From positions 1,486 through 65,485 of the forward strand of contig JACQPJ010000036.1 of assembly GCA_016207605.1 (NCBI GenBank): a stretch of 64,000 bases of DNA, read 5' to 3'. The notes beneath the pieces were generated by a model. The model saw only the letters and a list, made by a program, of their open reading frames with translations. It had not been told where the DNA came from and made no database searches. Numbering within the stretch: the stretch's first letter is position 1; the number at the start of each line of letters is the position of its first letter. This stretch comes from Elusimicrobiota bacterium. Its GTDB lineage: Bacteria; Elusimicrobiota; Elusimicrobia; UBA1565; UBA9628. Below, piece after piece: positions 7,467 through 25,938 of the stretch. The position numbers and the translations under genes were made by a program.

Positions 7467-9461
7467 CTAATGAGCCGCGCCCTTGCCGTTGGGTGAGGGG
7501 GCCGCCGGAGCCACCTCGACCCGGAGATCATGGCGCCGCCTCTGCTCGGCGTAGTTGCGGCGAGCCTCTCGCGGCGTGTTCCCCTCAACCGCATAGAGCG
7601 CAACAGGGGTCAATTTCAAGGGGTCCGCCTGCAGGGGCTCGCCCGGGGCCTTGGCGCCCACTCCGGACGCCCAAACGACATCGGCCTGCCGCGCGTCCTC
7701 CCAACCCCGGATGCCCAGCAAAGTTCCCGCCCGCGGCGGAAACAGGATGCGCCCGTAAATGTGCTTCATCGGCTTGGGGCTGGCCGCGGGTCGACCCCGA
7801 ATCCCGAGCGCGATCATGGCATGCTCCAGCACCAAGTTGACGCCGAAGACCTCCTGATGGAACGGAACAAACGGCCGCCCCGGCACGCGCGGGTTGGCGT
7901 CAACGACGTACATGTCCCCGTGCCCGTCAATGATTATCTCGAAATGAAAGATGCCGTCCTCAGCGCCGGCGGCCCGGGCCAGCGCGACGGCCTCCTTCAA
8001 GGCGCGCGCCTGGCGCTTGTTGCCCAGCGTGGACGGGAGGGTGAGCCCCGTCAGCGCCGCGGACCCCCTGCGGGGCCGATGATTGTCGGCGATGCGGCCG
8101 TACAAAAGCTCGCCGTCGCGCAGCGCGAAGTCAACGGAAATCTGGCGGCCCTCAAGCAGACGCGCAAACGTGATGCCGAGGTCCGGGTCAAAGGTCTCGT
8201 TATGGACCATGCCGTCGGAACGCGCGGCGGACTCCGCGTGGATCTTGCGCGCGAGCCTGCGGGCCTGCTCGCGGGCCTCGGCGACGGTGCGCACCTTGAC
8301 GACGCCGTCGGAAGAGCCCCCGGTCGCGGGCTTGAGGACGGCGGGCACGCCGACTTCCCGCAAAGCCCGCTCCAGATCGCCCTCGTCCACTTCCCCCTCC
8401 CGCAAACGGACCCTCAGGGACGCAAGCACGGGCAAGCCGGCCCTTGCGGCCAAGACCGGCAGGTTCGCCTTGTCGCGCAGGGCCTGGACCGCCTCGTAAG
8501 ACATATGACGCAAGCCCCAGCGCTGGGCCATCAGCGCCGAGACGTCCACGTCGTCTTCGACGAAGGAAAGGATGCCGTCGCCGCGGATGCCGGCGCGCTC
8601 GACCGCCTCCACGGACAAGCGCGCGAGCCGCCGGCGCCGTTCCTGGTGGGTTTCGCCGTCTTTCGCGGGAATGTCAACCCGCACGACTTTCTCCACGAAC
8701 GGTTCGGGAGGATATCTCGTGTAGATATCCTCAGCCTCGTCCGATTCACGGAGGTAAACCAGGATCACCTTGACTCCGGCGGACGTGAGCATCTCCAGGT
8801 TCTTCTGGTGCTGAGGACCGACGGCATAGCCCACGACGATGAGGACCTTGTCCTGCATGGCGGCCAGGCGCTCGCCTTGGGAAACGGGCTCGGTCTCGCG
8901 GCGCCGGTGCGCGCCGTCAAAGCCGTCGCCGATGAGGGCCGGCGGCTGTTCCGCGAAAGCTTCGAGCTGGACCTGCGCGCCCTGTTGTTCCTCGAGCGCG
9001 GGAGCGTCGGGAGCGGGAGCGGTCGCCCGAAGTGATTGGGAATCGGCGGACGCCGGACGCGCCGAACGCTGAGACCGAAGCCTCCGGCCGCTCCGCGCGA
9101 AGGCGCCGCGAGCCGTGCCCGAGGGCCGCGCCGCAACGCGGGATTCCTCCCGGCCGGTCGCCGTCAATGCCGGAGCCGGCGCGAGCTCCGCGATTTGACC
9201 CGCGGCGGCGGCCCCGGGCTGGGCGAGGACAAACGGCTCGGGCAACCCTTCGAATCCGGCGCCCAAGACAACCTCCAGCGGCGCCGCGTCCTCCAACGGC
9301 AGAGATTGAATCTCAATCGCCGGGCTTTCGGCGACGACGTTCAGCACTCGCGATTGCCCGAAAGACGCCGTCCGCGACCCCGCGAAGAGGACCGCGCCCG
9401 CGGCCCATCCCGCCGCCAGGAAACCGGAACCCCGCCGCCACGCGTTGTCTCGATGCATCAT
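7467..9461 (-). CDS. ATP-grasp domain protein with an N-terminal twin-Arg/hydrophobic export-like segment and a long Ala/Pro/Ser/Arg-rich linker
   Basis: 664 aa. Motifs: GVPAVLKPATGGSSDGVVKVRTVAEA (ATP-grasp Lys/Gly-rich loop), GIFHFEIIIDGHGDMYVVDANPRVPG (Mg/ATP-site E/D-x-N). The pre-domain is DKVLIVVGYAVG..GVKVILVY and the N-terminus is WRRGSGFLAAGWAAGAVLFAG. Confidence 0.75.
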   Translation of the reverse strand: MMHRDNAWRRGSGFLAAGWAAGAVLFAGSRTASFGQSRVLNVVAESPAIEIQSLPLEDAAPLEVVLGAGFEGLPEPFVLAQPGAAAAGQIAELAPAPALTATGREESRVAARPSGTARGAFARSGRRLRSQRSARPASADSQSLRATAPAPDAPALEEQQGAQVQLEAFAEQPPALIGDGFDGAHRRRETEPVSQGERLAAMQDKVLIVVGYAVGPQHQKNLEMLTSAGVKVILVYLRESDEAEDIYTRYPPEPFVEKVVRVDIPAKDGETHQERRRRLARLSVEAVERAGIRGDGILSFVEDDVDVSALMAQRWGLRHMSYEAVQALRDKANLPVLAARAGLPVLASLRVRLREGEVDEGDLERALREVGVPAVLKPATGGSSDGVVKVRTVAEAREQARRLARKIHAESAARSDGMVHNETFDPDLGITFARLLEGRQISVDFALRDGELLYGRIADNHRPRRGSAALTGLTLPSTLGNKRQARALKEAVALARAAGAEDGIFHFEIIIDGHGDMYVVDANPRVPGRPFVPFHQEVFGVNLVLEHAMIALGIRGRPAASPKPMKHIYGRILFPPRAGTLLGIRGWEDARQADVVWASGVGAKAPGEPLQADPLKLTPVALYAVEGNTPREARRNYAEQRRRHDLRVEVAPAAPSPNGKGAAH

Positions 9462-9468
9462 TCTTTTT

Positions 9469-9513
9469 ATTATAGCGAGAATTGACCTAGATCAACCAGG
9501 ACCTTTGGACCTA
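9469..9513 (-). promoter_or_regulatory. shared cis-module (gene orientation): TAGGTCCAAAGGTCC box (9499-9513), palindrome TTGATCTAGGTCAA (9482-9495), TATAAT (9469-9474) 7 nt before the ATG at 9461
   Basis: Read directly. The distance from box to -10 is 24 nt, identical to the module at 2198-2241. Confidence 0.5.
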
Positions 9514-9581: not shown

Positions 9582-12500
9582 CTAAGGGCTCCGCGGCGCG
9601 GATTCCGCGTCGCCCAGCAGCCGCAAAAGTTGGCGCAGGGCTGCGGGCCTGTCCGTCTCCCCCACCCTCTCCACAAGCGTCTGCAGGCGCTGGCGCGATA
9701 TGCGGACCTGCCTACTGTCGCGCCCCATGGCGCGAGCCTCCATGCTCTTCGCGCGGGCCCGGAGCACCGGCGTCCCATCGCGCAGAAGCGCGCCGACCTC
9801 CCGCTCCCTCTGCGCCCTCAGATCGCCCTTCATCTCATCGATCTGGCGCGTTTCGCTGGGGTCCTCGGACCCTTGGACGCCCAGAAGAACGGGCCTGAGC
9901 CGAAGCGGCCGACTCTCTCCATCCTCCTCATCCGTGTACCCCGGCCAAAAGCCGATGCGCAAGACGAGATAATCCTGGCCCGGCATGGACCTAAAAACCG
10001 CGCTGATCAGGGCCTTGACATCCTCCTTCAAGCGCTCATAACGCGTCTTCTTTTCCTTTATGCCCGGCAGCTTATACAGCGTCGCGGCGTCATCCAAACC
10101 ATACAGCTTGAACCAGTAGTCCCAGTTCGAATCCTCCTCCGTCTGCTCTTTCATTTGGAGCGCATAGTCCTCATCGTCGCGATCGGACTTGTAGAGCCGT
10201 TTGTCGAAACCGAACTGCACGCCTTTCCCGGGAACGCGCACCGCCTCAAATTTCATGAACAACGGCTCCGCGCTGCTCTCCACGACGACTGCGCCCTTCT
10301 TTCCGAGCTTTCTTTGGAGCTCCAAGACATAATCGGCGATTTGCGCCCCCTGGTCGGGCGTGAAGATTCGCGGCTCGTCTTCTTCATTCTGGGGCTGGTC
10401 CTCGTCATCCCCTTCACGGCGTTGGTCCTCCGCTCCCGCCCGCGCTCCCTTAAATTGCTCGGCCACGAATTCCTGGGGCTTTTTGCCCAATGATGTGTGC
10501 ACCACGATGCGATTGCCGATATCCTCTCGATGATCCGTCAGCCACCGAGACAGCGTCCGCTGGACCTGGTCCCGGTTAAAGGGCGCGAGCCGGATTTTCC
10601 TTTGGACCCTCTTTTTGACCGCAGGAGCAAAGTTTTTTCTCAAGAGCGGATGTCGCTCGTTGAGGAAAGCCAGGGTGTCGGGCACCTTCACCTCATTCTC
10701 GTCCACGGCTCCGGCAAGCGCCAGCGTCCGCACCGTCAACTGGTCCACGGTCGGGCGGGTGACATCGAAGACATGGGCCACCGCCTGCGGCTTCCTCTTG
10801 TAAGTCGCCAAGACGTACTCCCCCGTCTTGGAGTTGTAGGACAGGCCTGCCGAAACGAATTGGTCCTTTTTCACGAAATCTCGCCTGTCAACCAGCAGGA
10901 AGTCGCCCGGGAAAAGCGTGCAGGCCTCGGCCAGGAGGGCCAAATTCCGCGGCGTCGGGGCGCCAAGGATGGCCACCTTCGGCTTGTCCGCGGCAGGCCG
11001 ATCGCGCAGTTTGAGGGGCGGATATCCCGATCGCCGCAGGGTCCGATCGAGCGCCCGGACCCAGGCCCTCTTGATCAAGCGACCCAAACCCTCCGTGGCC
11101 GCTTGGCGGGAGGCCACCGTGTGGGCCGTCGCGCCCATGTTCGCCTTCCATCCGAGGCCAAGGATGAGGTGCAGCTTCTGATACGGCCCCATGAACCGCA
11201 GGAATTCCTCCAATTCCTGCTCGTCGAGGCCGATCAGCCCCGCGATGATGGCATGATCCGTGGAGTGGGAGTAAACCGGCGTCCCATCCTCCAAGACGAG
11301 GCGTCCCTCGCCGTCGGGCCGCGCGCCCGTCATAACCATCACGGCGCGGGCGCTGTGGGTAAAACCGCCGGCGCGCGGATTCACCTCGACCTTGTACATA
11401 CGCCACCTATTCCCCGTTTTGCCGCGGCGCGCCGCGTTGTCCACGCCCATGAACCCGACGAGTCCATAATCCCGCCACAGCGTCTGGGCGATGACGCGAT
11501 CCCCCCTCATCATATCCGCCCGATAGGCGTCGTTGGCCGGCTGTCTCCCCCCTATGAAGACGCCGTGGTCCAAGTCCTGGTCATGGGTCGTGTGCACGAG
11601 GACCTTGCCGTTGACTTGGACCCGGAGTTGTGTGCTGGGGGCGGGGGAGACCGGGATCCAGTCCAAGAATTCCTCCACCACGGCTCCGAACTCCTTCATC
11701 TGCCGGAAATACGCTTTGCCCACCGGGCTCTTTTTCATGCGCTGCAGGGTCCGGAGGATCAATTCATAGCGCTCCTGTTCCGTGAGCGATTTGGACGCCT
11801 CCCCGCCCTGCAGGAACACGGCCACGTTGCCCAGCCCGGACACGCCGTTGTTGAGCTTCACCATCAGGCGCTTGAGTTTCGGATGCCGATGCCAGAGCGC
11901 GGCGCCCTTGCGCGCCAGGTCCGTGAGGTCGTAGATATGCTCGAACCCGTCGGCCATGTGCATGTTGAGCTCGGGATGCTGCGAGATGATCTCGCGGAAG
12001 ATCTCCCGCTGCACGCTCTTGTTGTCGAGGATGTCGACTTCCAGGGGGCCGTCCAGCGTGGTCCGCAGGCCGAAGCTGTCGCGCAGGTCGGCAATGAGCC
12101 CCCATTCGCTCTTTTGCGCTATGAAGGGAACGACCTTGACCGGATAGCCGCGGTCGGCGGCCCCGGGCTCGACCGCCGCCCGGGCTTGGGCCCGCACGGC
12201 CTGCGCCGCCTCCGCCGCTTTGGCGATCGCCTCCCGAACGGCTCGATTCTCAGGAAGCATCACCATATCGGCCAGGCTCAGATCCTTCTCGGGCAGACGG
12301 TCTCCCAACTCCTTGAACTTCGCATTGAGGCGGGCCGCCAGGGTCTCTTTCGTCGCGCGCCTCTCGCGTTGCGCGCTCTGCGCCGCCTTGGACTTCGCCT
12401 GGAGGCGGGCCTCCGGAGTCTCCGTTGCCCTGCGCTTCTCGTATTCCGCGCTCAGCGCCGCCTTGACCGGCTCCTCGAGACCGCCCGGCCACTCCGGCCG

Positions 12501-17096: not shown

Positions 17097-18629
17097 CTAC
17101 CTCGCCGCCATCCAGCCCAGAACGGCGTAGCCGGCGAGGGCAAATGCCGCCGCGGCCATGGCGTATGGAAGCTGGGTGCGGATGTGCTCCATGTGATCGG
17201 TATTGGCCGCCAGGGAGGAAAGCACGGAGGTGTCGGAAATGGGAGAGCAATGGTCGCCGAAGGCGCCACCGCTGAGCACCGCGCCGGCAGCCAGGAATGG
17301 ATTCATGCCCGCGCCCAGCGCCAGCGGGACGGCAATCGGCATCATGATGGCCCAGACGCCCCAAGACGTCCCCATGGCAAACGACAGAATCGCCGAAATA
17401 AGGAAAGTCAGAACCGGAATCCAGCCGGCGACGATGTAGGACCGGGTCGCCTCGACAATAAAGGCCGAAGCGCCCAAGCCCTCGGGGGCCGGCGCGCGCA
17501 TCAGGTCGCTGAGGGTCACCGCCAGGAGGATGATCACGGCGCCGATGATCGTGGACTTCCCCCCTTCGAAGGCAAAGTCCAGGAATTCCTTGGCCGTCAT
17601 CAAACCTTTGCGAACGTACAGGATCAACGCCGTCAAAAGCCCGAGCGCGAACGTCGTGGACATGCCGGTCAGGGAGTCCACGCCGGTCTTGGGCAAGCCG
17701 GGATGCCACCTCGTGATGAATCCATCCCAAACCCCCAAGGCCAGCAGGAAGAGGACGGAAACGGTCAACGGGATCATCATGTCGGAGACCCCGCCGCCTC
17801 GGACATGCGCGAGGGCCTTCTTTTCCGCCTCGGGGTCAAGCATGGGCGAGGACCCAGGCTTGTGCAGGAGCCCTTGGGTCTTGACCCGCCGCTCGGCCTC
17901 CTTCATCGGACCGAAGTCTGGAATCGCGCCGAGCGCAAGCAGGACGATGAACCCCAGGACGGCCCAGCAATAGAGATTGTAGGGCATGGTCCGCAGGAAG
18001 CCGACCAAGCCTTCGCCGGCGCGGATGGAAGGGATGTTTTCCTCCAGCAAGGTGATCATAAAGGCGATCCAGCCCGAGACCGGGATCAATGCCTTCGTCG
18101 GCGCCGCGGCCGAGTCGCAGCAGAAGGCAAGCTTTTCCCGAGAGATCCTCATGCGGTCGAAGACCGGCTTCATGGCCGTGCCGCTGACCAAGATGCCGAA
18201 ATAGGCGCTGGTGAAGATGGATATCCCGATCGCAAAACAAGTCAGCACGGCCTCCGCTTCGCTGCGGATGCGCCGAGCCGCGCGCTCGGCGAAGGCCCGG
18301 CTGCCCCCGGACTTCTCGATGACGGCGATGAACGCGCCCAACAGAACGACGCTAAGAAGGAGTTGGCCGCGGCTGGAGTCCTTGGCAAGACCCACTCCCT
18401 TGAGCGTCGCCGACGCCGCATGTCCCGCCAAAGTGGAAAGCGTCTGAGGCAGGAGATAGACCAAGGCATGAACGGCTCCATGGACGCGGTCGTCTATCAC
18501 GACGACGCTCAGCGCGACGCCGACCAGCAGGGACTCGATCACCCGCCGGGTTTTCACGGCCATGGCAACGGCCGCGGCCGCAGGCAGAAGCGAGAGCCAG
18601 CCATAATGCACGACGGCGGCGTCAGGCAT
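17097..18629 (-). CDS. NhaC-family Na+/H+ antiporter-type transporter (many members carry amino or organic acids)
   Basis: Polytopic membrane protein typical of the NhaC/C4 antiporter family. I prefer Met-8 (18629), which is preceded by GGAGG 6 nt upstream; the track start is 18650. Its stop lies only 15 nt before the start of gene 13740..17081. Confidence 0.75.
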   Translation of the reverse strand: MPDAAVVHYGWLSLLPAAAAVAMAVKTRRVIESLLVGVALSVVVIDDRVHGAVHALVYLLPQTLSTLAGHAASATLKGVGLAKDSSRGQLLLSVVLLGAFIAVIEKSGGSRAFAERAARRIRSEAEAVLTCFAIGISIFTSAYFGILVSGTAMKPVFDRMRISREKLAFCCDSAAAPTKALIPVSGWIAFMITLLEENIPSIRAGEGLVGFLRTMPYNLYCWAVLGFIVLLALGAIPDFGPMKEAERRVKTQGLLHKPGSSPMLDPEAEKKALAHVRGGGVSDMMIPLTVSVLFLLALGVWDGFITRWHPGLPKTGVDSLTGMSTTFALGLLTALILYVRKGLMTAKEFLDFAFEGGKSTIIGAVIILLAVTLSDLMRAPAPEGLGASAFIVEATRSYIVAGWIPVLTFLISAILSFAMGTSWGVWAIMMPIAVPLALGAGMNPFLAAGAVLSGGAFGDHCSPISDTSVLSSLAANTDHMEHIRTQLPYAMAAAAFALAGYAVLGWMAAR

Positions 18630-18709
18630 GAAGCCTCCTCGGAAATCCATTCACAAACAGCAGGTGCCGGATTTTATCAAGTTTCTGCGGTTGGCGACGC
18701 ATCGGCGTC

Positions 18710-21700
18710 TCATGAGCGCTGCCGGGAATCCAAAGGCACCCAAACGGGCGGCTCCGGCGGGCGTCCGTTGCCGGACGCTCGCGCTTGCCCGCGGCGAGCC
18801 TTCAATCCCATCCAGTAGGGCGCGACGTACCGCTCGAACGCGCCGATGATCAGCGCAACGGCGTAGACCCCGGCAAACCACGCCAGCACGGGCAGAAAAT
18901 TCTCCGGCGTAAGATGTCCCAGGAGCGTCTCCTGATCCTCCGGCGCCTGAAATGGCTTGCCGTAAAGAATCCCATAAAGGAGGAAGCTGACCAAGGGAAG
19001 CTGGAACATCAGCAGAGCGGAGTGAAAAATCGTGACGCTGGCGGAGGCGTCCCGGCCATTTTCGTCCGTGCTTTGCGTCCGCAGGGCCCGAAGCATGAGG
19101 TTGTTGAGGCCGAGGTCGGTGGCTGTGCCGTAGTAGAAGTACATGAAGCAGCCCGCGGCCGCGGCGAGCAGCCCCAGCACGGGATGGCCGAACGCGATGA
19201 GCCCGAGGGCGGCCGGCAGGAACCCCATCCAAGTCACGGCCTGAAATGCGAAGGAAAAGAACGGCTTATAGTAGTCGTCCCAGAGCCGTTCTTCAGGAAC
19301 GGCACCCGTGGGGCCCCGCCAGCCGACGATGGAGCTCGGCGCCAGCTTCTGACAGAATGCGCATAATTGATAAGCCCAAAATCGCCTGTCCCGCCAGCTC
19401 TGGCCGGGGGGCGGCAAAGGCTGAATCCCCAAACTCATGATCATGGCGCCAAGAAAACCGACGCCCCCAATGGCGCCCCCGAAGACGGAGCACCACAGCA
19501 TGGCGTGCCCGGGATGCAAGGAGGCCGCCGCCGCGTAGGCGATCGTCGGCACGAGCACGACGATGAGGGCGACCTGAACGTTTTTATAGGCAATGTTGGC
19601 AAAGACCCTGACTTTTAGAATCTTGCTTCTCCATGTGGCGACGGCGCCGTGCACCGCGGCGTTCAAGCGTCGTCCCAAAGGCTCCCGGTTGCCCATGTCG
19701 GGCTTGACGCGCAAATCCCGCGAGCGGACATACATCATCCACGTGGTGATGACGAACGCCGCGGCGATTCCCAGCGTGATCAGGGGCCCCAGAACGGCGT
19801 TCAGCTGAGGGTAGCCCTTCACGAGCAGGACGAGCGGAAGGCTGAGAAACCAGCGGCCAAAAACCTGCCCGATGGCCTGCGTGGCCTGGAGACGCACGTT
19901 GGGGGCGCTCTGGTCGGCCTCGTCCAGCGGCAGGTGGAACTGGATGGAGCTCTGCACCCAAAGCGCCTGGTTATAGGAAATCATGGCGCCCGGAGTGACG
20001 ATGAGCCCATCCAAAAAGGCCAAGACGAGGATCGGATTGTAGAGATATCCATACCAGGCGACGGGCGGCTCGATCAAGCCGGGCAGGCAGAAGGCCACGA
20101 CCGCCATCACGCTCCAGCAGGCGGCACGTCCCGCCGAACTCAGCCACAAAAGCGTCTGAATCCGCACCAGGGACAGAACAGGGCCGCTCAACAGCGCGCC
20201 GATGCTGCAGCCCAGAAAACTGTAGGCCCAATAGAAGTTCGTCTGCAGCGTCGGCCCGCCCAGAGCCAGCATGCCGTAAATCATCATCGCCTGAACGACG
20301 ACGAAGCCCAGGCTGCGCCACCACTCCATCTTTTCGAGGATCGGGTAGACCTCGCGGGCCAACTGCAGGCTCGCTTCATAGCGCAGCTTGAACGCGTCCA
20401 GATGGAAGATCGGAAGGAAGGGCCGCTCCTGCGTGACGACCGGCTCCTTGCCGCCCGGGGGTCTGATCGTCAAGGCAACGGGCCCCACCGCGTCCATCCG
20501 ACGCGACGCGGCCTCGACATCCGGGGCCTCCACGCGCAGGGTGGCGACGACGTCGGACGGCTGGACCGCGTCGCCGGCCCTCTTGAGCAGGCGCGCGGTC
20601 CCGTCTGCGACGAGACGCTCCAAGCCCGCGATGCTTTCCACGAACCCGGCGCTTGGGGCGACGAGGGACCATAGCCCGACCACGGAGTCCCGTTTGGACG
20701 CCTTGGCCGGGGCGACTCCGAAGAGAGAGAGTATCTCGTCGCTGACCGAAGGAACCTCGTCGCGCCGGCGGAAGCCGGGGTCCCGGCGGCCCTCGTCCAC
20801 GGCAAGACCGGACGGCTTGGGACCCAGGCCCGTGACCGAAATGTTCACCCGATACGTCCCGGACCAGATCCCGGCAGCCTCCAGCGCCGCCAGCCCGACG
20901 GCGACGAGCTTGTCAATGTGAGCTTTCTGCTCCAGGTTCTGCCGGGCGAACTCCTCCCGCTGCGCCTCGGTCTGTTCAGGAAAGGGCGGGAATTCCCTGG
21001 CCGCGGAGGACGGCATCTGCGACGGGGAAACCGCCGCGGAGCGGTCATCGCTCACGTCCCCGTGGGAGAGAGACGCCACCTGAAGCTTGCCCCCGATGGT
21101 CTGCACGCCGAGATAGAGATCCACCTGGGGCCCATCGTCGCGTCCCGACCTCACCAGATAGATTTCGCCCGCGGGCACCCCGCGGCCGCGAAGGGTCCGC
21201 CACGCCGCGACGGCCTCCAGGCCATCCCGCGCGTCTATGCCGGGCTCGGAGCCGCGGCGGGAATGCAGGGTGACCATCCCGTTGACCTCGTCATAGGCCC
21301 GCGCCACGTCCGCCTCACGAAGCAGGTGGTCGCGGAACGTCATGCTGAGTTCGCGCACCGGGGACAATGCCCTCAGCATCTGCAGCGGATCGGCGACGGC
21401 CTCAACGGCTCGGCTGGAGTTGCCGAGCACGCCGCGACCGCGGCTGAGTCCGCGAAGATGATCAACGACCGCTCCGCCAAGCTCCTGGAAGCCGGGCGCC
21501 GGCCACACCGCGACGGGGCCCGGCGCGCGCGCCGCGGCCCGGGAGACCGACTCAACGGCGTCGGCGACGCCCCGCGCTTCCCGCGCTTCGACCGGCGCCT
21601 CAATGAACTGTTCTGGGCCAAGCAAGTCCCGGTACCGCGCCCCTCGGACCGCGGTGTCCGCGAATTTGACCGTCAATCCGCGCTCGCGCGAAAGCGCCAA

Positions 21701-22408
21701 AATCTCCTGGACCTCATGCCGCCGCGCTCCCAGAACGATCAAAAGACTGCCCCGAAGAGGCTCCGACGTCCCCAGGGAATACGCCCCCGCCGGCATATCC
21801 CTGGGGAGGGACGCCTCCTGGACAGCCCCGGCGTCCGCGCCGACAAGGACGTCCCGCGATTCTAAAACCTGACCATCGAACGCGCCTCCCGTCCGACCCG
21901 GACTCGAACGAACTCCCGCATGGCCGCGGACGGCGCGAACGCCTTGCCGGACCGCGGCCGCCAACGCCGCGCCGGCCCGGCCGACGGCGCCGACCGCCAA
22001 CCCTGCCCAGGACGCTGAAGGTGCGGGCTTCGCGATCAGGCGGCGGGGAGGAGAAGAGTTTGACGCAGCAATCCGACTCCCCGCGTCCTGTCCCCACGCC
22101 GACGCGTGCGCCGCCAAGCCGGGCGCCGCCGGAGCGAGGGCGACCTCTTCGGGAGGGACGCTAGACGCGCCGGCCGACGCATCGCCTCCGCCGGGAAAGC
22201 CTGCCAGCCCGGACCACGGCTCCAACATTCCTCCCGCCGCCGCGAGCGGAGCAAGGGGCGGACGGACCTCGGTTGCCGCGATCGGCTGCATAGACGCCAT
22301 TGCGTGGTAGCAGGGCAGGCCCGGGGAAAATGCGACAAGGATGGCGGCCAGCATCGACGCGGTCAGACGCCTAAGGACCATCCAGGCCCGCCTCACGCAT
22401 TGTGTCAC
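18710..22408 (-). CDS. fusion protein: signal-like N-terminus, low-complexity linker, ATP-grasp-like (possibly degenerate) domain, and a C-terminal polytopic membrane domain of about 550 aa
   Basis: 1232 aa. The GTG start overlaps the upstream stop (GTGA). The N-terminus RRLTASMLAAILVAFSPGLPCYHAMA is paralogous to the 22405..25938 protein. The central layout (LLIVLGARRHE..GLTVKF.., ..NGMVTLHSRRGSEPG..) mirrors the pre-domain and central domain of the 664-aa ATP-grasp but lacks a clear KP..GGS..G motif. At least 10 hydrophobic helices follow from about aa 690 to the end. Confidence 0.6.
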   Translation of the reverse strand: MTQCVRRAWMVLRRLTASMLAAILVAFSPGLPCYHAMASMQPIAATEVRPPLAPLAAAGGMLEPWSGLAGFPGGGDASAGASSVPPEEVALAPAAPGLAAHASAWGQDAGSRIAASNSSPPRRLIAKPAPSASWAGLAVGAVGRAGAALAAAVRQGVRAVRGHAGVRSSPGRTGGAFDGQVLESRDVLVGADAGAVQEASLPRDMPAGAYSLGTSEPLRGSLLIVLGARRHEVQEILALSRERGLTVKFADTAVRGARYRDLLGPEQFIEAPVEAREARGVADAVESVSRAAARAPGPVAVWPAPGFQELGGAVVDHLRGLSRGRGVLGNSSRAVEAVADPLQMLRALSPVRELSMTFRDHLLREADVARAYDEVNGMVTLHSRRGSEPGIDARDGLEAVAAWRTLRGRGVPAGEIYLVRSGRDDGPQVDLYLGVQTIGGKLQVASLSHGDVSDDRSAAVSPSQMPSSAAREFPPFPEQTEAQREEFARQNLEQKAHIDKLVAVGLAALEAAGIWSGTYRVNISVTGLGPKPSGLAVDEGRRDPGFRRRDEVPSVSDEILSLFGVAPAKASKRDSVVGLWSLVAPSAGFVESIAGLERLVADGTARLLKRAGDAVQPSDVVATLRVEAPDVEAASRRMDAVGPVALTIRPPGGKEPVVTQERPFLPIFHLDAFKLRYEASLQLAREVYPILEKMEWWRSLGFVVVQAMMIYGMLALGGPTLQTNFYWAYSFLGCSIGALLSGPVLSLVRIQTLLWLSSAGRAACWSVMAVVAFCLPGLIEPPVAWYGYLYNPILVLAFLDGLIVTPGAMISYNQALWVQSSIQFHLPLDEADQSAPNVRLQATQAIGQVFGRWFLSLPLVLLVKGYPQLNAVLGPLITLGIAAAFVITTWMMYVRSRDLRVKPDMGNREPLGRRLNAAVHGAVATWRSKILKVRVFANIAYKNVQVALIVVLVPTIAYAAAASLHPGHAMLWCSVFGGAIGGVGFLGAMIMSLGIQPLPPPGQSWRDRRFWAYQLCAFCQKLAPSSIVGWRGPTGAVPEERLWDDYYKPFFSFAFQAVTWMGFLPAALGLIAFGHPVLGLLAAAAGCFMYFYYGTATDLGLNNLMLRALRTQSTDENGRDASASVTIFHSALLMFQLPLVSFLLYGILYGKPFQAPEDQETLLGHLTPENFLPVLAWFAGVYAVALIIGAFERYVAPYWMGLKARRGQARASGNGRPPEPPVWVPLDSRQRS

Positions 22409-25400
22409 GGGGCCTTAGGGGCCTTAAGGTCTTTTGCGGCCGCGAGCTCTTCGGGCGTGAAGAGCCAGCCCGGACCATAGATGACGACAACCGCCCCCAC
22501 GAGGACGCACCAGAGGGGAACCAAATTCATCGCGACCGGAACGGCCAGGGACAGGAAAACCGCCTGGGCCGCGCCCGTCACCAGCATCTCCACGGAACCC
22601 TGGATCGCGAACAGCCTTTCCCGGGCGTCCCTTCCCGCGGCGTCATATCCTTGCTGCTGAATCGTGGTCAGCGTCCAGGTGCTGAATCCCACCCGAGGTG
22701 CGATGAAATACATGTGGAACAGAAAGGACCCCAACGCGGCGAGAAGCACGCCGGGCCAAAAGGCATGGGAAACGACCGCCGCGCCAAGGGGAACCAGCAG
22801 CACGGGCAAGGTAGACCAGAACTGCACCTTAAAGAAAGGGCCATACTTGGCGTAACTTTCTTTTGCGTTTTTAGGCGGTTGCCAATCATGCAGGCTCGAG
22901 GGGGTCATGCGCCGCGCCCAGCCCAGCAGGACCGACAAAAAGCGCTCGATGGGGCGGCCGAGCCGCTTCGTGGCGGTCCAGCCGCGAAACGCGCTCAGCA
23001 TGGCTAAGGCGCCCAGCATGCCGACGCTCGTCAAAGCGACGGAGGAAAAGACGCCCCAGGCCTGGGATATCTTGTCGTCGCCGGACACGAGGTAGTGAAG
23101 GCCGAAATACAAAAGCACGACGCTGGGCACGCCCTCGTAGATGGTGCGGTCGCTGGAATTCATCCCGAAGCGCTTGTAAAAAAAAGCTTTTTCGAGCGCC
23201 AAGACGCCAGCCGCCCAGAATTCGGCAAGCACTGAGCCGATGCGGACCGGTTCCGGGTTGCCCATATCCTCGTTTTTAGGCATCGCACGAAGGTAGAAAG
23301 GTAGGCCGATCACGCCCAGCGCGAGACAGGCCGCGGCCATCGCCAAGGCTAAGGCGACGGCCGCCGACCCGGAAGCGCCCGTCGCCAGCAGAACGGCTCC
23401 AAAGGACAGGGCAAGAGGGCTGACGAGACGCAGTCCCGCGCTCCAAGTCTGACGGAACACGCCCCAATCCTTGAAATCGTCTTTATCCACGGGGAAATGG
23501 TGGCGCCGGGCAAGGGCGCCGATCCCGCCCTCGTCGCTGTCTAGGAGACACGCGAACGCGGTGACGACTCCCTGCAGGAACGTGAGGGCGAAATAGGCCG
23601 TGTCAAACGCCGGGCCGCCAAGCAGGAGAGCGGCGGCGGGAACGCCCAACGTCCAGATCAGCGTCGTCGCCGCCATCCCGCCGGGGATGACGGCCCTCAG
23701 GCGCAGGCGTGCGAGTATGGGCGCGGCGATCAGGACCACCAAGGCCACGGGCAGGATATAGCCCCACGTGGCGGTGGCCGCGGTCCAAGCGCCGCCCTTC
23801 ACCAAGCCGAGAGGAATCAAAAAAGAGGACCGGACGATCAACTGCGCGAGGCCGGCGATCTGGCCGCGCATGTAGCCTTGCAGGATATGTTTGCCCCGCA
23901 GAGCCGCCGTCTCGCGGACTTCCTGGTGCGCTTTTTCCACATCCACCCGCGCGCCCGCGCGGTCGTCGCCCGGCCGGCGGACCACCTCTCCCTGCGCGGT
24001 TCGAACGTCCACGAAGATACTCGACATAAACTCCCTGGCGCGCTGATCAACCTGCGCGGGACTGTCTCCGTCCCTGGCGCGGATGGCGATGCGGGCGATG
24101 ACGTCGGCGGGGCCGAGAGAATCCCCCGGTCGTTTGAGCGGCAGAAACCGGACGGTCGGATCAGCCGAAAACGGCGCCACAATGCCGACCAGCGTGCCGG
24201 CAACCTCCGCGACCAGCTCTCGGGATTGAGCCTCCTGCGGGCGGCCCAGCCCCGGCGCCACGGCCGCGCCCAAAAGGGAGAAAAGCTGCGCCTCGACCAG
24301 CGCGGCGCCTTCGGCGGCGTGCAGGACGGAACCCCAAACGCCGCGCGAGACGTCCTCGATCCGGGGGCCCTCCGAAGTCCATGCCAGAACCGCGCTCACC
24401 GCGCCGGATCGGACGCCGAGCTTTTTCGCCGCCCGAAGGAGCGCGCCAACGAACTCATCGTCGCCGGGCCGCGAGGCAAGGACCGCGCCGTTTCGCGTCA
24501 GGCGGTCTGAAACGGCCGCTCGAACCGCTCGCAATTCCAGTCCCTCTTCGCCAAGGACCTCCTCAACGATGAGGTCCACCTGGCGCCGGGGGCCTTCCCA
24601 CTCGCGGTCCATCATGACGCCCTCGGGGTCAACGCGGGCGACCTGCCGCCATGCCTCGGCCGCCTCCTGTTCGCTGGAGGCGCGACGCTCAATGCCCTTC
24701 ACGCGCCGCGACCAAACGCGCGCCGCGACCATGGGTCCGCCGCCCATGTCGCGGAACGCCTTGACGGCGGCCTCAGGACTCGGCAGGTCGCTGCGCACCG
24801 TCGTCGCCTGCTCCGGGTCGCGCTTGAGGCTCTCACGCATCCCCGCGCGCTGCAAGCGGCGCACAGTCTCCAGCGAGTCGCCGAGCACGCGGGGACCGCC
24901 GCCTTGGTTGAGACGGTCTACGATGCGCCCCGCAAGCTCCTCGAAACCCTCCGCCGGCTGTACGGCGGCGAAAGGACGGCGTGCATGGCGACGGGCGATC
25001 TCCTCAAGAACGGCATCCGCCTGTTCCGGGGTCAAGCTGTCCGCGGACGCCGGCATGGCAGGCAGGACGCGTACTTTCCCATCGAGATCGCCGAGTCGGG
25101 ACCATTCGCTCCCATCCTCCAGCACATGAACCTTAACGCCATGCGCTTGGGCGACCCTCGCCCAAGTCCTGGCATACTCAGACCCGTTGGACCCGACCAA
25201 GAGGACGGCCCTGCCGCGGAGGGACGCGGAATCGCGCTTCGCCGGCCGCGCGGCGGCAGGAACGGCCGCGTCCTGCGCGGCCGGCGCGAGCCCCAAGCTG
25301 ACGCGCCCATCGTTGGCGCGCCCGGGCTCGCGCTCCTCCTCCTCCCCGAGGACGTCAGGGCTGTCGGCGCCTGAACGTTTCGCATCTCCCGGCGCCGCCG

Positions 25401-25938
25401 CCTGTCCGTCAAAACGAAGTCTGCCGGGATCGCGGAACCGGGCGCCGCGTTTGTCCTGGGCGTTAGAGACCCCGGAGAGCTCCTGGACTTGGGCCAGCCC
25501 GCCCGTGATGGATGGCTGCTCGGCCCGAGATCGAGGAGACGCGGTCCAATGCGCCGCTTGCGGCGCGCGGGCATGAGCGAGAAAGGCCGGGCGCGCAACG
25601 GTATGAACGGCAGCGCGCCGCAGCAAGCCGGCCGCATCCGCCGTGCCGTTGGCGGACAACTCGAAGACGCCGAAGGAATAGGCGCCGAAAAGCCCCGAAA
25701 AGCCGGCTTCCCCGGCGAAGGCGTCCGCCGCTGCCGGCGGAGTCAAGGCGACGTCGAGCCGGGGAAGAGATAAAACGACCGGGGCGGACGCCTCCCCCTG
25801 GGCCATGGCCTGGTAGCAGGGCAGGCCCGGGGACAGGACGACCAGGGACGCGGCGACAAGCGCGGCCGTCAACCGCTTAAAAACGCCCCGCTGGAAATTG
25901 ACCTGGATCATTTGATTGTAGTCAATTTTATTCAGCAA
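22405..25938 (-). CDS. paralog of 18710..22408: signal-like N-terminus, linker, ATP-grasp-like domain and C-terminal polytopic membrane domain
   Basis: 1177 aa. N-terminus: FKRLTAALVAASLVVLSPGLPCYQAMA. Central region: AVLLVGSNGSEY..GVKVHVLED, GGGPMVAARVWSRRVKGIERRASSEQEA. Multiple TM helices follow from about aa 700. The start is uncertain: TTG at 25938 or ATG at about 25911, and the palindromic motif overlaps the latter. Confidence 0.6.
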   Translation of the reverse strand: MLNKIDYNQMIQVNFQRGVFKRLTAALVAASLVVLSPGLPCYQAMAQGEASAPVVLSLPRLDVALTPPAAADAFAGEAGFSGLFGAYSFGVFELSANGTADAAGLLRRAAVHTVARPAFLAHARAPQAAHWTASPRSRAEQPSITGGLAQVQELSGVSNAQDKRGARFRDPGRLRFDGQAAAPGDAKRSGADSPDVLGEEEEREPGRANDGRVSLGLAPAAQDAAVPAAARPAKRDSASLRGRAVLLVGSNGSEYARTWARVAQAHGVKVHVLEDGSEWSRLGDLDGKVRVLPAMPASADSLTPEQADAVLEEIARRHARRPFAAVQPAEGFEELAGRIVDRLNQGGGPRVLGDSLETVRRLQRAGMRESLKRDPEQATTVRSDLPSPEAAVKAFRDMGGGPMVAARVWSRRVKGIERRASSEQEAAEAWRQVARVDPEGVMMDREWEGPRRQVDLIVEEVLGEEGLELRAVRAAVSDRLTRNGAVLASRPGDDEFVGALLRAAKKLGVRSGAVSAVLAWTSEGPRIEDVSRGVWGSVLHAAEGAALVEAQLFSLLGAAVAPGLGRPQEAQSRELVAEVAGTLVGIVAPFSADPTVRFLPLKRPGDSLGPADVIARIAIRARDGDSPAQVDQRAREFMSSIFVDVRTAQGEVVRRPGDDRAGARVDVEKAHQEVRETAALRGKHILQGYMRGQIAGLAQLIVRSSFLIPLGLVKGGAWTAATATWGYILPVALVVLIAAPILARLRLRAVIPGGMAATTLIWTLGVPAAALLLGGPAFDTAYFALTFLQGVVTAFACLLDSDEGGIGALARRHHFPVDKDDFKDWGVFRQTWSAGLRLVSPLALSFGAVLLATGASGSAAVALALAMAAACLALGVIGLPFYLRAMPKNEDMGNPEPVRIGSVLAEFWAAGVLALEKAFFYKRFGMNSSDRTIYEGVPSVVLLYFGLHYLVSGDDKISQAWGVFSSVALTSVGMLGALAMLSAFRGWTATKRLGRPIERFLSVLLGWARRMTPSSLHDWQPPKNAKESYAKYGPFFKVQFWSTLPVLLVPLGAAVVSHAFWPGVLLAALGSFLFHMYFIAPRVGFSTWTLTTIQQQGYDAAGRDARERLFAIQGSVEMLVTGAAQAVFLSLAVPVAMNLVPLWCVLVGAVVVIYGPGWLFTPEELAAAKDLKAPKAP

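What the first reader, a model, noticed from the sequence alone, without database searches (positions are those of the whole stretch)
7467..25938. Topological paradox: ATP-dependent ligase folds carrying signal or twin-arginine-like export sequences
- The N-termini read WRRGSGFLAAGWAAGAVLFAG, ARRAALTRSPAVWAWLVLLGLTLAGPRAFA, GRRTRSAFRGLRVLLAGALLLTGRPQADA, VRRAWMVLRRLTASMLAAILVAF and FKRLTAALVAASLVVL.
- Four of the five have an RR pair before the hydrophobic core, and several end in AxA-like cleavage sites (AFA, ADA, AMA).
- By the positive-inside rule these domains would be extracytoplasmic, where ATP is not available.
- There are several possible explanations. The proteins could be Tat-exported as folded units. 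They could be uncleaved N-in anchors with an unexpected topology. They could be pseudo-enzymes acting as binding modules. Or they could be effectors delivered to another cell. Each would be unusual for this fold.
Basis: inference. Interest (0 to 1): 0.6.

Follow-up and report, generated by a model that had tools for sequence, protein, structure and literature searches.

The report
Signal-like heads on cytoplasm-type ligases
Five neighbouring genes of an uncultured Elusimicrobiota bacterium encode ATP-grasp-type proteins that begin with what look like secretion signals, but the fused transporter domains and related proteins indicate that the enzymes stay on the cytoplasmic side, so these heads probably tether rather than export them.

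Summary
All five N-termini read as quoted, sit on translated, conserved sequence, and have the n/h/c anatomy of cleavable signal peptides (h-regions of 11-19 residues, AxA-type ends). The folds are ATP-grasp: P1 is BacD-like, P2 and P3 are BesA/PGM1-like, and P6 is ATP-grasp by AlphaFold plus Foldseek.

The five fall into two classes.

- **P5 and P6.** They carry a specific 30-residue N-terminal module ([KR]2-x13-[SA]PG-x3-Y-x-A-x-A), a disordered linker of about 200 aa, an ATP-grasp domain that has lost its Lys/Glu/Asn/Arg catalytic residues, and a 12-helix MFS transporter. The transporter's K+R distribution (25:0 and 22:0) and motif A put the soluble domain on the cytoplasmic face. The same module heads up to 16 large polytopic membrane proteins per genome in this order, including MFS, ABC exporter and M48 peptidase proteins, always before a first helix whose N-flank is more basic than its C-flank. 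It is therefore not an ordinary export signal.
- **P1, P2 and P3.** They keep intact ATP/Mg sites and have generic signal-like heads. Their catalytic parts are homologous to the cytoplasmic tails of about 1,600-aa MFS-ligase fusions.

Best reading, at about 50%: these heads are membrane tethers or leaders that keep cytoplasmic ligases beside their transporters. Genuine Sec/Tat export of P1-P3 is not excluded. TatA and TatC are present.

The parts
22405..25938 (-). P6, 1177 aa: N-module, disordered linker, degenerate ATP-grasp domain and 12-TM MFS domain
   Evidence: ORF. The AF2 model has pLDDT 75.7, with residues 47-234 below 50, 235-660 folded and 667-1171 helical. Only 22 relatives were found among 1.84e9 representative proteins.
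25789..25890 (-). P6 N-terminal module (residues ~17-50): FKR-LTAALVAASLVVL-SPG-LPCYQAMA
   Evidence: An HMM built only from other genomes hits it at 1e-11 (43 bits). Generic signal-like N-termini of this genome score at most about 8 bits. AF2 gives helix 7-35, a break at S36-P37-G38, then helix 39-49, at low confidence.
23959..25236 (-). P6 ATP-grasp-fold domain (residues 235-660), catalytic residues replaced
   Evidence: Foldseek matches biotin carboxylase, PurT and the L-amino-acid ligases RizA and BL00235 at about 1e-9. In the alignment to intact relatives P0004 and P0007, K becomes A, hvE becomes V, ExN becomes D..S and R becomes G.
22426..23940 (-). P6 MFS transporter domain (residues 667-1171), N-in/C-in
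   Evidence: AF2 of the domain alone gives pLDDT 86.4 and pTM 0.87 with 12 long helices. Foldseek matches MdfA at 5e-6, plus PepT, G6PT and XylE. K+R is 25 on the side of the soluble domain against 0 on the other side. A motif-A-like G-x-L-x-E-R-x3-R follows TM2.
18710..22408 (-). P5, 1232 aa: paralogue of P6 with the same architecture (N-module at about 22283-22375, MFS at about 18824-20341)
   Evidence: blastp P5 against P6 gives 25% identity over 1188 aa. The module HMM scores 1.7e-7 with the independent model. K+R is 22:0. The catalytic residues are replaced. The GTG start overlaps the P6 stop.
17097..18650 (-). NhaC-family transporter gene inside the operon
   Evidence: Pfam Na_H_antiporter at 4e-40.
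13740..17081 (-). P3, 1113 aa: generic signal-like head (residues 1-30), Ala/Pro-rich linker, BesA/PGM1-like ATP-grasp (residues ~227-612) and a C-terminal 'X' module
   Evidence: NCBIfam BesA at 3.7e-21. PDB 8yi6 at 4e-14 with K, D and E-x-N-x-R kept. Residues 733-847 match the domain just after TM12 of the ~1600-aa MFS fusions at 2e-10.
9582..13640 (-). P2, 1352 aa: generic signal-like head (residues 1-31, ...AGPRAFA), linker, BesA/PGM1-like ATP-grasp and 'X' module
   Evidence: NCBIfam BesA at 3e-14. It is a paralogue of P3 at 26% over 580 aa. The PRAFA end is shared with the G186 798-aa homologue.
7467..9461 (-). P1, 664 aa: weakly hydrophobic signal-like head (RR-GSGFLAAGWAAGAVLFAG-SR), linker and L-amino-acid-ligase-type ATP-grasp (residues ~289-643)
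   Evidence: Pfam ATP-grasp_4 at 3e-9 and LAL_C2. BacD at 1.6e-8 with K, E, D-x-N-x-R kept. Its catalytic part matches the C-terminal ligase domain of the ~1600-aa MFS fusions at 1e-32.
5653..7458 (-). M14 carboxypeptidase with an ordinary signal peptide and no linker; last gene of the operon
   Evidence: Pfam Peptidase_M14 at 3e-20. The N-terminus reads ...RRGMPLWAFLAVFCPALVSAQA|S.

Best explanation
The signal-like N-termini are real and functional, but they do not carry the ligase domains out of the cytoplasm. They hold the proteins at the inner face of the cytoplasmic membrane, as a re-entrant or interfacial anchor or as a leader recognised by a partner. A flexible Ala/Pro-rich arm of 150-230 residues then lets each enzyme swing beside the transporters of the same operon.

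P5 and P6 are MFS transporters. Each carries a catalytically degenerate ATP-grasp domain on its cytoplasmic N-flank, probably for substrate or partner binding. P1, P2 and P3 are active ATP-grasp peptide or amino-acid ligases that use cytoplasmic ATP. Together they are a split version of the cytoplasmic tail of the ~1,600-aa MFS-ligase fusions seen in related genomes.

The product would be exported through the MFS or NhaC-type carriers and trimmed outside by the genuinely secreted M14 carboxypeptidase.

Shown:
- the folds
- residue conservation or loss
- the MFS fold and its charge bias
- conservation and spread of the N-module
- the domain homologies

Inferred:
- that the head does not translocate what follows it
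- the tether mechanism
- the pathway logic
For: 1. The membrane domain of P6 is an MFS fold. It has 12 helices, all long loops lie on one side, K+R is 25:0 (22:0 in P5; 10-26 against 0-1 in nine family members) and a motif-A-like loop follows TM2. The soluble domain joins the K/R-rich N-flank directly, with no hydrophobic segment in between.
2. No second membrane-spanning segment exists in any linker. The best 19-residue windows have dG of +3.9 to +12.5.
3. The same N-module precedes a second architecture, module-linker-MFS-X-ligase. There the linker runs straight into TM1 of a 12-TM MFS, and the ligases follow the K/R-rich C-flank. The number of helices between linker and ligases is even, so the linker end is cytoplasmic.
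4. The module is a specific conserved element. It has no indels in 14 sequences, and an independent HMM finds only P6 and P5 among 6,999 ORFs. It heads up to 16 large proteins per genome. The ten or so examined were mostly polytopic membrane proteins with cytoplasm-type parts: MFS, an ABC exporter with two NBDs, an M48 peptidase and BatA/VWA/DUF58 giants. Their first helix after the linker has a more basic N-flank than C-flank in most cases.
5. P1-P3 keep all ATP/Mg/catalytic residues.
6. The P1 catalytic domain matches the ligase domain, and the P2/P3 C-terminal module matches the X domain, that follow TM12 in the fusions.
7. PGM1-like ligases with signal-like heads occur only in genomes that also have P5/P6-type fusions (3 of 401). 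In G186 they are adjacent.
8. There is a precedent. The PglC N-terminal Lys-Arg...Ser-Pro helix was predicted to span the membrane but is re-entrant (PMC6133551). The module has a basic pair, 13 residues, then [SA]-P-G.
Against: - On sequence alone the heads are textbook SPase I substrates. The -1 position is A or G and the -3 position is A, L or V in every module copy seen, and an acidic residue often follows.
- The return arm after the Pro-Gly is only about 8-9 residues, shorter than in PglC.
- '[AG]-P-[AS]' before the cleavage-type site is also common in the generic signal-like N-termini of this genome, so the Ser/Ala-Pro alone is not diagnostic.
- P1-P3 do not carry the specific module. 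They score like the genome's generic signal-like N-termini, including the M14 peptidase's, and they have no membrane domain to fix their side. Their cytoplasmic location rests on homology and chemistry only.
- The linker motif shared between the classes is enriched but far from universal (12 of 32 and 3 of 6).
- No signal-peptide or topology predictor, and no experiment, was available.
Confidence: 0.5

Rival explanations
1. The heads of P1, P2 and P3 are working Sec or Tat signal peptides. These active ATP-grasp ligases are exported to the periplasm or beyond. There they would use an unknown ATP supply, act once from a pre-charged state, or work where ATP is available, for example in another cell. 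P5 and P6 would be a separate case.
For: - The heads have generic n/h/c anatomy with AxA ends and score the same against the module HMM as the genome's other signal-like N-termini.
- A signal-like head is kept in all five PGM1-like homologues seen.
- Four of the five PGM1-like proteins seen (P2, P3, G186_798, L087_1231; not G009_839), and P1, have RR, and P1 has a weak Gly/Ala-rich core plus a basic c-region.
- TatA and two TatC genes are present.
- The next gene in the operon is a secreted M14 peptidase.
- Periplasm-targeted ATP-dependent Lig E DNA ligases show that such targeting exists (PMC10799422; bioRxiv 10.64898/2026.03.22.713542).
Against: - No ATP source in the periplasm is known.
- The Tat consensus is not matched, and RR is not kept in the G009 homologue.
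- An Arg in the c-region is common in this genome's signal-like N-termini (ARA| sites), so it is not a Tat mark here.
- The homologous catalytic domains sit on the cytoplasmic side of MFS domains in the fused relatives.
- The partner proteins P5 and P6 present their soluble domains to the cytoplasm.
Confidence: 0.22
2. Everything is outside. The module is a cleaved signal peptide. The linkers and ATP-grasp domains are periplasmic. The MFS domains are inserted upside-down, with both termini out, perhaps feeding ATP or substrates to the fused domain.
For: - It is the only other arrangement that satisfies chain parity in both architectures: module-linker-ligase-MFS and module-linker-MFS-ligase.
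- The conserved -3/-1 pattern favours cleavage.
- The MFS fold includes nucleotide carriers; AtNTT1 is among the Foldseek hits, though only as one generic MFS match.
Against: - It would put 10-26 Lys/Arg and all long loops of every family member in the periplasm, against 0-1 inside. It would also put motif A outside.
- The same logic would place ABC nucleotide-binding domains and DUF58/MoxR-type parts of other module-bearing proteins outside.
- No known MFS has this orientation.
Confidence: 0.08
3. The heads are cleaved or inserted normally, and a cryptic, weakly hydrophobic or protein-lined crossing in the linker returns the chain to the cytoplasm. This would leave an N-terminal periplasmic tail.
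For: - The first 40-140 residues after the head are nearly free of Lys/Arg in many members, and Arg-rich stretches follow.
- P3 has an Ala-rich stretch (residues 79-97, dG +3.9) no worse than some MFS helices of P6.
Against: - P1 and P2 have nothing comparable (dG +10.6 and +12.5).
- Most linkers are Pro/Asn/Gly-rich with best windows of +5.7 to +8.
- The pattern is not consistent across members.
Confidence: 0.1
4. This is an annotation artefact. The true starts lie downstream of the hydrophobic segments, and the heads are untranslated open frame in GC-rich DNA.
For: - Three of the five starts are GTG or TTG.
- The public gene call for P5 starts at residue 223 and that for P3 at residue 12.
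- No clear Shine-Dalgarno sequence is seen.
Against: - The heads are conserved at protein level in other genomes. P6 and P0003 share LSPGLPCYQA[ML]A while the linkers between have diverged.
- No stop separates head and enzyme in any homologue.
- GC3 stays at 0.65-0.85 from the first codons.
- The P5 start overlaps the P6 stop.
Confidence: 0.03

Closest known systems
BacD (YwfE) L-amino-acid ligase with the MFS exporter BacE of the Bacillus subtilis bacilysin operon; related ligases RizA and BL00235
   Same: P1 and the soluble domains of the P5/P6 family are L-amino-acid-ligase-type ATP-grasp domains (ATP-grasp_4 plus LAL_C2; BacD at 1.6e-8). As with BacD and BacE, they are paired with an MFS carrier.
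   Different: - In the P5/P6 family the ligase-type domain and the MFS are one polypeptide.
- In P5 and P6 the ligase site is degenerate.
- Every enzyme carries a signal-like head and a long disordered arm.
- The product is unknown.
PGM1 / BesA-type ATP-grasp peptide ligases (pheganomycin PGM1; L-propargylglycine--L-glutamate ligase BesA, PDB 8yi6)
   Same: P2 and P3 match BesA over the whole catalytic domain with the ATP/Mg residues kept.
   Different: - P2 and P3 are 1113-1352 aa.
- They add a signal-like head, a linker and a C-terminal module shared with the Elusimicrobiota MFS-ligase fusions.
- The scores are far below the equivalog cut-off (75 against 750 bits), so they are relatives, not orthologues.
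PglC-type re-entrant membrane helix of monotopic phosphoglycosyl transferases (PMC6133551)
   Same: - Both have an N-terminal basic pair, then about 13-14 hydrophobic residues, then a Ser/Ala-Pro break.
- Both are read by the standard rules as N-in/C-out, although the catalytic domain must be cytoplasmic.
   Different: - There is no sequence homology.
- The return arm here is short.
- A 150-250-aa disordered linker follows instead of a packed globular domain.
- An AxA-type site is conserved.
- The topology is untested.
Lig E periplasm-targeted ATP-dependent DNA ligases of Gram-negative bacteria (PMC10799422)
   Same: An ATP-dependent enzyme carries an N-terminal export signal, which raises the same question of where the ATP comes from.
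   Different: - The fold is different (nucleotidyltransferase, not ATP-grasp).
- Lig E can carry a covalent AMP across the membrane.
- ATP-grasp enzymes form acyl-phosphates and need ATP at each turnover.

Membership tests
ATP-grasp superfamily | Three-domain ATP-grasp fold | tested here: met
   - P1: Pfam ATP-grasp_4 at 37 bits against a 27-bit cut-off.
- P2 and P3: BesA model and PDB 8yi6.
- P6: AF2 plus Foldseek at about 1e-9 to biotin carboxylase, PurT and L-amino-acid ligases.
- P5: by paralogy to P6.
ATP-grasp superfamily | Catalytic set: ATP-binding Lys, Mg-binding Glu and Glu/Asp-x-Asn, catalytic Arg | tested here: met
   This applies to P1, P2 and P3. The residues are VLKP, hfE and vvDaNpR in P1; vlKa, gvD and vEtNlRk in P3; and vKl, gvD and vEvNpR in P2.
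ATP-grasp superfamily (P5 and P6 as active enzymes) | Same catalytic set | tested here: not met
   In P6, K becomes A, E becomes V, E-x-N becomes D-x-S and R becomes G. In P5, K becomes H, E becomes N, E-x-N becomes A-x-D and R becomes G. The close relative P0003 is degenerate too, whereas P0004, P0007, P0022, G009 and G186 keep the residues.
Sec-type cleavable signal peptide (SPase I) | Basic n-region, 7-15-residue hydrophobic core, small residues at -3 and -1 | tested here: met
   All five proteins meet this. In 16 of 16 module copies the -1 position is A or G and the -3 position is A, L or V.
Sec-type cleavable signal peptide (SPase I) | The polypeptide that follows lies outside the cytoplasm | tested here: not met
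   This applies to P5 and P6. The following domain joins the cytoplasmic N-flank of an MFS with a 25:0 and 22:0 K+R bias. For P1-P3 it is inconclusive, because they have no membrane domain.
Sec-type cleavable signal peptide (SPase I) | Cleavage by signal peptidase shown, or predicted by trained tools | not testable with these tools
   No SignalP, DeepTMHMM or proteomic data were available.
Tat (twin-arginine) signal peptide | S/T-R-R-x-F-L-K consensus with a near-invariant RR | tested here: inconclusive
   RR is present in P1, P2, P3 and P5, but the consensus is not matched (RRGSGFL, RRAALT, RRTRSA). Homologues have KK, KR or RSR. Clear Tat-type heads elsewhere in the genome read RRSFLA and SRRALM.
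Tat (twin-arginine) signal peptide | Tat machinery encoded in the genome | tested here: met
   TatC is present twice (169 and 155 bits) and TatA once (63 bits).
Major facilitator superfamily (C-terminal domain of P5 and P6) | 12 helices in two six-helix bundles; fold match to solved MFS | tested here: met
   AF2 gives pLDDT 86.4. Foldseek matches MdfA at 5e-6 (TM 0.53/0.66), plus PepT, G6PT, XylE and others, with 128 hits at E <= 1e-3.
Major facilitator superfamily (C-terminal domain of P5 and P6) | Motif A (G-x-L-a-D-R-x-G-R-R) in the cytoplasmic loop between TM2 and TM3 | tested here: met
   The family consensus is A-G-x-L-x-E-R-x-x-x-R after TM2. P6 itself has ILARLRLR.
Major facilitator superfamily (C-terminal domain of P5 and P6) | Pfam MFS_1 over the gathering score | tested here: not met
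   P5 and P6 give no hit. P0007 and P0010 are sub-threshold at 1.2e-4 and 7e-4. A profile against PDB sequences found nothing. The domain is a divergent member by fold, not by sequence model.
PglC-type re-entrant membrane helix | Conserved basic pair at the N-terminus and a helix-breaking Ser/branched-Pro about 14 residues later | tested here: met
   This applies to P5, P6 and the module family. [KR][KR]-x13-[SA]-P-G aligns without indels in 14 sequences. AF2 breaks the helix at S36-P37-G38. P1 does not meet it because it has no Pro. P2 and P3 have G-P and R-P at other spacings.
PglC-type re-entrant membrane helix | Both ends of the hydrophobic segment on the cytoplasmic face, shown experimentally | not testable with these tools
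   This needs SCAM or reporter fusions.
Bacterial lipoprotein signal (lipobox) | [LVI][ASTVI][GAS]C with an invariant Cys | tested here: not met
   GLPC in P5 and P6 is not a lipobox (Pro at -1), and the Cys is not conserved in the module family.

The most novel reading that the evidence does not exclude
The [KR]2-x13-[SA]PG-x3-Y-x-A-x-A head with its long disordered arm is a previously undescribed, order-wide N-terminal device of Elusimicrobiota membrane proteins. There are two possibilities. It may be a new kind of leader that looks exactly like a cleavable signal peptide yet leaves everything behind it in the cytoplasm, a systematic exception to topology rules with its own recognition partner. 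Or the signal may work as it appears to, in which case this lineage runs ATP-grasp chemistry outside the cytoplasm on inverted transporters.
Probability: 0.3. Interest if true: 0.85.

Novelty: new variant of a known kind. Interest (0 to 1): 0.62.

Why it matters
Signal peptides and the positive-inside rule are the two most trusted sequence rules for locating bacterial proteins. Here they contradict each other in dozens of proteins of one lineage.

- **If the heads are tethers or leaders.** Standard predictors would systematically misplace a whole class of Elusimicrobiota proteins, and a new membrane-association or sorting element with an unknown partner awaits description.
- **If the heads are true export signals.** ATP-dependent amide-bond synthesis outside the cytoplasm would be new biochemistry.

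Either way, the operon is a rare and compact test bed. It encodes three intact ligases, two ligase-derived transporter fusions, a carrier and a secreted carboxypeptidase. It probably makes an unknown exported peptide-like product, and simple reporter fusions can settle the topology.

Tried and rejected
- **Downstream true starts.** Rejected, because the heads are conserved in other genomes and the coding signal runs from the listed starts.
- **Uncleaved single-pass anchors.** Unlikely, because the cores are 11-14 residues in four of the five and the 19-residue windows are poor.
- **A second helix hidden in the linkers.** Only P3 has a marginal candidate.
- **Lipoprotein signal at GLPC.** Rejected, because the Cys is not conserved.
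- **The [SA]-P-G break as proof of a re-entrant helix.** Weakened, because A-P-A or G-P-A before the cleavage-type site is common in the genome's generic signal-like N-termini.
- **A c-region Arg as a Tat 'Sec-avoidance' mark.** Weakened for the same reason: ARA| sites are common.
- **A universal linker motif linking all five proteins.** Only partly true. The strict motif [LIVMFA][YF][DE][GN] occurs in 12 of 32 module linkers and 3 of 6 PGM1-like homologues. P5 has it, but P1, P2, P3 and P6 have only near-matches.

Searches that gave nothing:
- The search for homologous proteins with P3, whole and by region, returned only itself.
- The search for related loci with P5 returned nothing.
- The profile of the membrane domain against PDB sequences returned nothing.
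- P0008 against the PDB returned nothing useful, so the ~900-aa soluble region of the P0008/P0010/P0014 class stays unidentified.
- Literature searches for ATP-grasp with a signal peptide, or in Elusimicrobia, found no description of this.

The small assembly (1.44 Mb) is not evidence of a reduced genome. Same-genus genomes are 2.5-4 Mb and this one is 75% complete.

Full report
**What is there.** On the minus strand of window 5653-25938 lie seven tightly packed genes. They are P6 (22405-25938, 1177 aa), P5 (18710-22408, 1232 aa), an NhaC-family transporter (17097-18650), P3 (13740-17081, 1113 aa), P2 (9582-13640, 1352 aa), P1 (7467-9461, 664 aa) and an M14 carboxypeptidase (5653-7458). A C26 peptidase gene converges on the end of the operon. 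The closest named relatives of a housekeeping gene in the window are Elusimicrobiota MAGs, at 82% and 74% identity. The assembly is 1.44 Mb and 75% complete, while same-genus genomes are 2.5-4 Mb.

**Check of the observation.** Each has three parts:
- a basic n-region with net charge +2 to +5
- an uncharged core of 11-20 residues whose truly hydrophobic part is 11-14 residues in four of the five
- an end of the AxA type (AFA, ADA, AMA)

On the Hessa scale the best 19-residue windows are +3.3 to +7.5 kcal/mol, and the 12-residue cores are -1.4 to +0.6. P1-P3 do not reach a Kyte-Doolittle TM threshold. This is the anatomy of cleavable signal peptides, not of membrane anchors.

The heads are translated sequence:
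- The GC1>GC2<GC3 coding pattern runs from the first codons.
- The P5 GTG start overlaps the P6 stop.
- Homologues in other genomes keep the same kind of head in frame with the enzyme.

A crude scan finds signal-like heads on 147 of 1,392 long ORFs of this genome. Five of six adjacent genes having one is therefore not chance. A cytoplasm-type double ATP-grasp protein elsewhere in the same genome (C5, 848-aa ORF) has no such head. The heads are thus not a general artefact of GC-rich ORF extension.

**The folds.**
- P1 is an L-amino-acid-ligase-type ATP-grasp. It hits Pfam ATP-grasp_4 over the cut-off and LAL_C2, and BacD at 1.6e-8.
- P2 and P3 are BesA/PGM1-type ATP-grasp ligases (NCBIfam at 3e-14 and 4e-21; PDB 8yi6 at 4e-14).
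- P5 and P6 hit no family model.
- An AlphaFold2 model of P6, built on the 22 relatives found among 1.84 billion representative proteins, has mean pLDDT 75.7. Residues 47-234 are disordered, 235-660 form a confident soluble domain and 667-1171 form a helical domain.
- Foldseek places the soluble domain with biotin carboxylase, PurT and the L-amino-acid ligases RizA and BL00235 at about 1e-9.

**Active or dead.** P1, P2 and P3 keep the ATP-binding Lys, the Mg-binding acidic residues, the E/D-x-N and the catalytic Arg. P5 and P6, with their closest relative P0003, have replaced them. In P6, K becomes A, E becomes V, ExN becomes DxS and R becomes G. In P5, K becomes H, E becomes N, ExN becomes AxD and R becomes G. 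Other members of the same fusion family (P0004, P0007, P0022, and those of G009 and G186) keep them.

**The membrane domain fixes the side for P5 and P6.**
- Modelled alone, residues 667-1177 of P6 give pLDDT 86.4 and pTM 0.87 with twelve long helices.
- The best structural matches are all MFS transporters: MdfA at 5e-6, then PepT, G6PT, XylE and ferroportin, with 128 hits at E <= 1e-3.
- The family has a motif-A-like G-x-L-x-E-R-x3-R after TM2.
- With the AF2 helix boundaries, every loop on one face is 1-5 residues long and carries no Lys/Arg.
- The N-flank, the loops 2-3, 4-5, 6-7, 8-9 and 10-11, and the C-tail carry 25 K+R in P6, 22 in P5, and 10-26 in seven further members, against 0-1 on the other face.

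This is a standard N-in/C-in MFS. The ATP-grasp domain runs straight into the K/R-rich N-flank of TM1 with no hydrophobic segment between, so it sits on the cytoplasmic face. No linker holds a credible second crossing. The best windows are +3.9 in P3, +4.5 in P5 (with an Arg in the middle), +6.5 in P6 and +10 to +12 in P1 and P2. For P5 and P6 a working, translocating signal peptide is therefore incompatible with the rest of the protein, unless the whole transporter is inverted.

**The P5/P6 head is a specific, widespread module.**
- Full-length relatives from other organisms begin with almost the same sequence. P0003 reads MKKLMASSLAAALILLSPGLPCYQALA and P6 reads ...FKRLTAALVAASLVVLSPGLPCYQAMA, although the linkers that follow have diverged.
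- Fourteen such heads from other genomes align without a single indel between the basic pair and the [SA]-P-G.
- An HMM of those heads finds, among 6,999 ORFs of this genome, only P6 (1e-11, 43 bits) and P5 (1.7e-7, 30 bits). Everything else scores below 8 bits.
- The module is present in 57 of 61 sampled genomes of the family, with up to 16 copies per genome.
- It is present in 51 of 401 genomes (21 of 122 genera) of the phylum at E <= 1e-7. These are confined to the window's order and a few neighbouring families.

It heads large proteins:
- MFS carriers, one with a HAD-like domain
- an ABC exporter with two nucleotide-binding domains
- an M48 peptidase
- BatA/VWA/TPR/DUF58 giants
- several unassigned multi-helix proteins

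It also heads a second ligase architecture of about 1,600 aa: module, a 230-260-aa linker, a 12-TM MFS, an 'X' domain and an L-amino-acid ligase. In that architecture the linker runs directly into TM1, whose N-flank is K/R-rich. The helix count to the ligases is twelve, and the ligases follow a K/R-rich C-flank. In most module proteins where the first helix follows the linker, the 25 residues before it hold 2-4 K+R against 0-1 after it. Across several unrelated protein families, then, the end of the linker is predicted to be cytoplasmic. The module does not behave as an export signal for what follows it.

**P1, P2 and P3.** Their heads are different. Against the module HMM they score -10 to +0.4 bits, like the M14 peptidase and the genome's other signal-like heads, and they have no membrane domain to fix their side. 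Three lines of evidence tie them to the cytoplasmic face:
- Their active sites are intact and need ATP at every turnover.
- The P1 catalytic domain matches the C-terminal ligase domain of the ~1,600-aa fusions at 1e-32. The C-terminal modules of P3 and P2 match the 'X' domain that follows TM12 at 2e-10 and 1e-7. In the contig that encodes P0003, the P3-like and P1-like parts are fused in one 1,231-aa protein with the same kind of head. The operon thus looks like a split version of the cytoplasmic tail of those fusions.
- PGM1-like ligases occur in only 3 of 401 phylum genomes, the same ones that have P5/P6-type fusions. In G186 they are adjacent.

A linker motif [LIVMFA][YF][DE][GN] is enriched in module proteins (12 of 32 against 0.7 expected) and in PGM1-like homologues (3 of 6), against 6 of 93 generic signal-bearing proteins. 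P1, P2, P3 and P6 carry only near-matches, so I give this little weight.

**Most likely mechanism.** The heads act at the membrane without translocating the chain. For the module, a re-entrant or interfacial insertion is plausible. A basic pair, 13 hydrophobic residues and a [SA]-P-G break recall the Lys-Arg...Ser-Pro re-entrant helix of PglC, which was also read as membrane-spanning until tested (PMC6133551). AF2 breaks the P6 helix at S36-P37-G38 (low confidence). The Ala/Pro-rich arms would then tether three active ligases and two ligase-derived binding domains beside the MFS and NhaC-type carriers. The product would be exported and trimmed by the secreted M14 carboxypeptidase. The folds, residues, charge bias, module spread and homologies are shown. 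The insertion mode and the pathway are inferred.

**What speaks against it.**
- The heads obey the -3/-1 rule in every copy seen, often with an acidic residue just after. A tether has no obvious need for that.
- The return arm after the Pro-Gly is only 8-9 residues.
- A-P-A or G-P-A before the cleavage-type site is common in this genome's generic signal-like heads.
- For P1-P3 the standard reading is export. The Tat machinery exists, P1 has some Tat-like traits, and periplasm-targeted ATP-dependent Lig E ligases are a precedent.
- The 'all outside, inverted MFS' arrangement also satisfies chain parity in both architectures, at the price of placing 10-26 basic residues and motif A in the periplasm.

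I put the tether reading at about 0.5, genuine export of P1-P3 at about 0.2, a cryptic crossing at about 0.1, the all-outside arrangement below 0.1 and an annotation artefact at about 0.03.

**Relation to earlier notes of this scan.** Notes on other genomes describe Elusimicrobiota ligase-MFS fusions behind a signal-like leader and the same conflict. I reached the conflict from this window's own data. I then extended it with the parity test, the charge counts, the module HMM and its spread, and the homology of P1-P3 to the fusion tails. Those notes are not independent evidence.

**Novelty.** I found no description in the searched literature of signal-like heads on ATP-grasp enzymes of bacteria, or of this module. 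The enzymes and carriers belong to known kinds. The head-plus-arm device and the resulting clash of topology rules are the new part.

Noticed in passing
window 22283-22375 and 25789-25890; loci L143-L145, L176-L195: The P5/P6 head is a lineage-specific N-terminal module, [KR]2-x13-[SA]PG-x3-Y-x-A-x-A. It heads up to 16 large proteins per genome, mostly polytopic membrane proteins, in this order of Elusimicrobiota. Each time a low-complexity linker of 150-260 aa follows. Only two copies occur in this (incomplete) genome.
   Followed up: yes
L187 (G423:C54:14100-19000): A 1,555-aa protein carries the same N-module and linker ahead of a full ABC exporter (two ABC_tran domains and ABC_membrane). 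This is another case where the head precedes parts that need cytoplasmic ATP.
   Followed up: partly
L177, L190, L195: Giant fusions of 1,016-3,219 aa combine aerotolerance-operon-type parts (BatA N-terminus, VWA domains, TPR, DUF58) behind the same N-module.
   Followed up: partly
P0008, P0010, P0014; L106 (G252:C110:1085-5272): A third architecture has the N-module, a linker, a soluble region of about 900 aa with no Pfam or PDB match (it contains a conserved RGFCGRDCSKSL...VGYVQ(L/M)(V/M)EA(R/K)K stretch), and then the same DIDEGG-motif MFS domain.
   Followed up: partly
window 22426-23940 and 18824-20341: The MFS family has a conserved acidic insert, LVD-x-D-x-GG...FP-x-DD..RNR, in the cytoplasmic loop between TM4 and TM5. 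It is kept in P6 (DSDEGG...FPVDKDD) but largely lost in P5 (SYNQAL...LPLDEAD).
   Followed up: no
window 9462-9485: A TATAAT box lies 8 nt upstream of the P1 ATG (ctcgcTATAATaaaaagaATGATG). This suggests an internal promoter and a very short or absent leader for P1.
   Followed up: no
G000 contig C5, about 18336-19346 (outside the window): An ~815-aa protein combines an L-amino-acid-ligase-type and a Ddl-like ATP-grasp domain without any signal-like head. Similar ORFs of ~820-850 aa recur in many genomes of the phylum.
   Followed up: partly
G167:C12:11263-15441: A single open frame of 5,940 aa contains both an MFS match and an L-amino-acid-ligase match.
   Followed up: no
L004 262-1104 and L108 10919-11761: A 280-aa protein starting MCRLYGQIS (an N-terminal Cys, as in class-II amidotransferase/Ntn-type enzymes) lies next to the PGM1-like ligase gene in both G009 and G186. 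M28/M20 and C26 peptidase genes recur near these clusters (L087, L108, and window 4907-5656).
   Followed up: no
window 18710-22408, 22405-25938, 13740-17081: Public gene calls cut off the heads. P5 is called from residue 223 (P0009, 1010 aa), P6 from Met10 (P0002) and P3 from residue 12 (P0001). Database versions of these proteins therefore hide the feature.
   Followed up: yes
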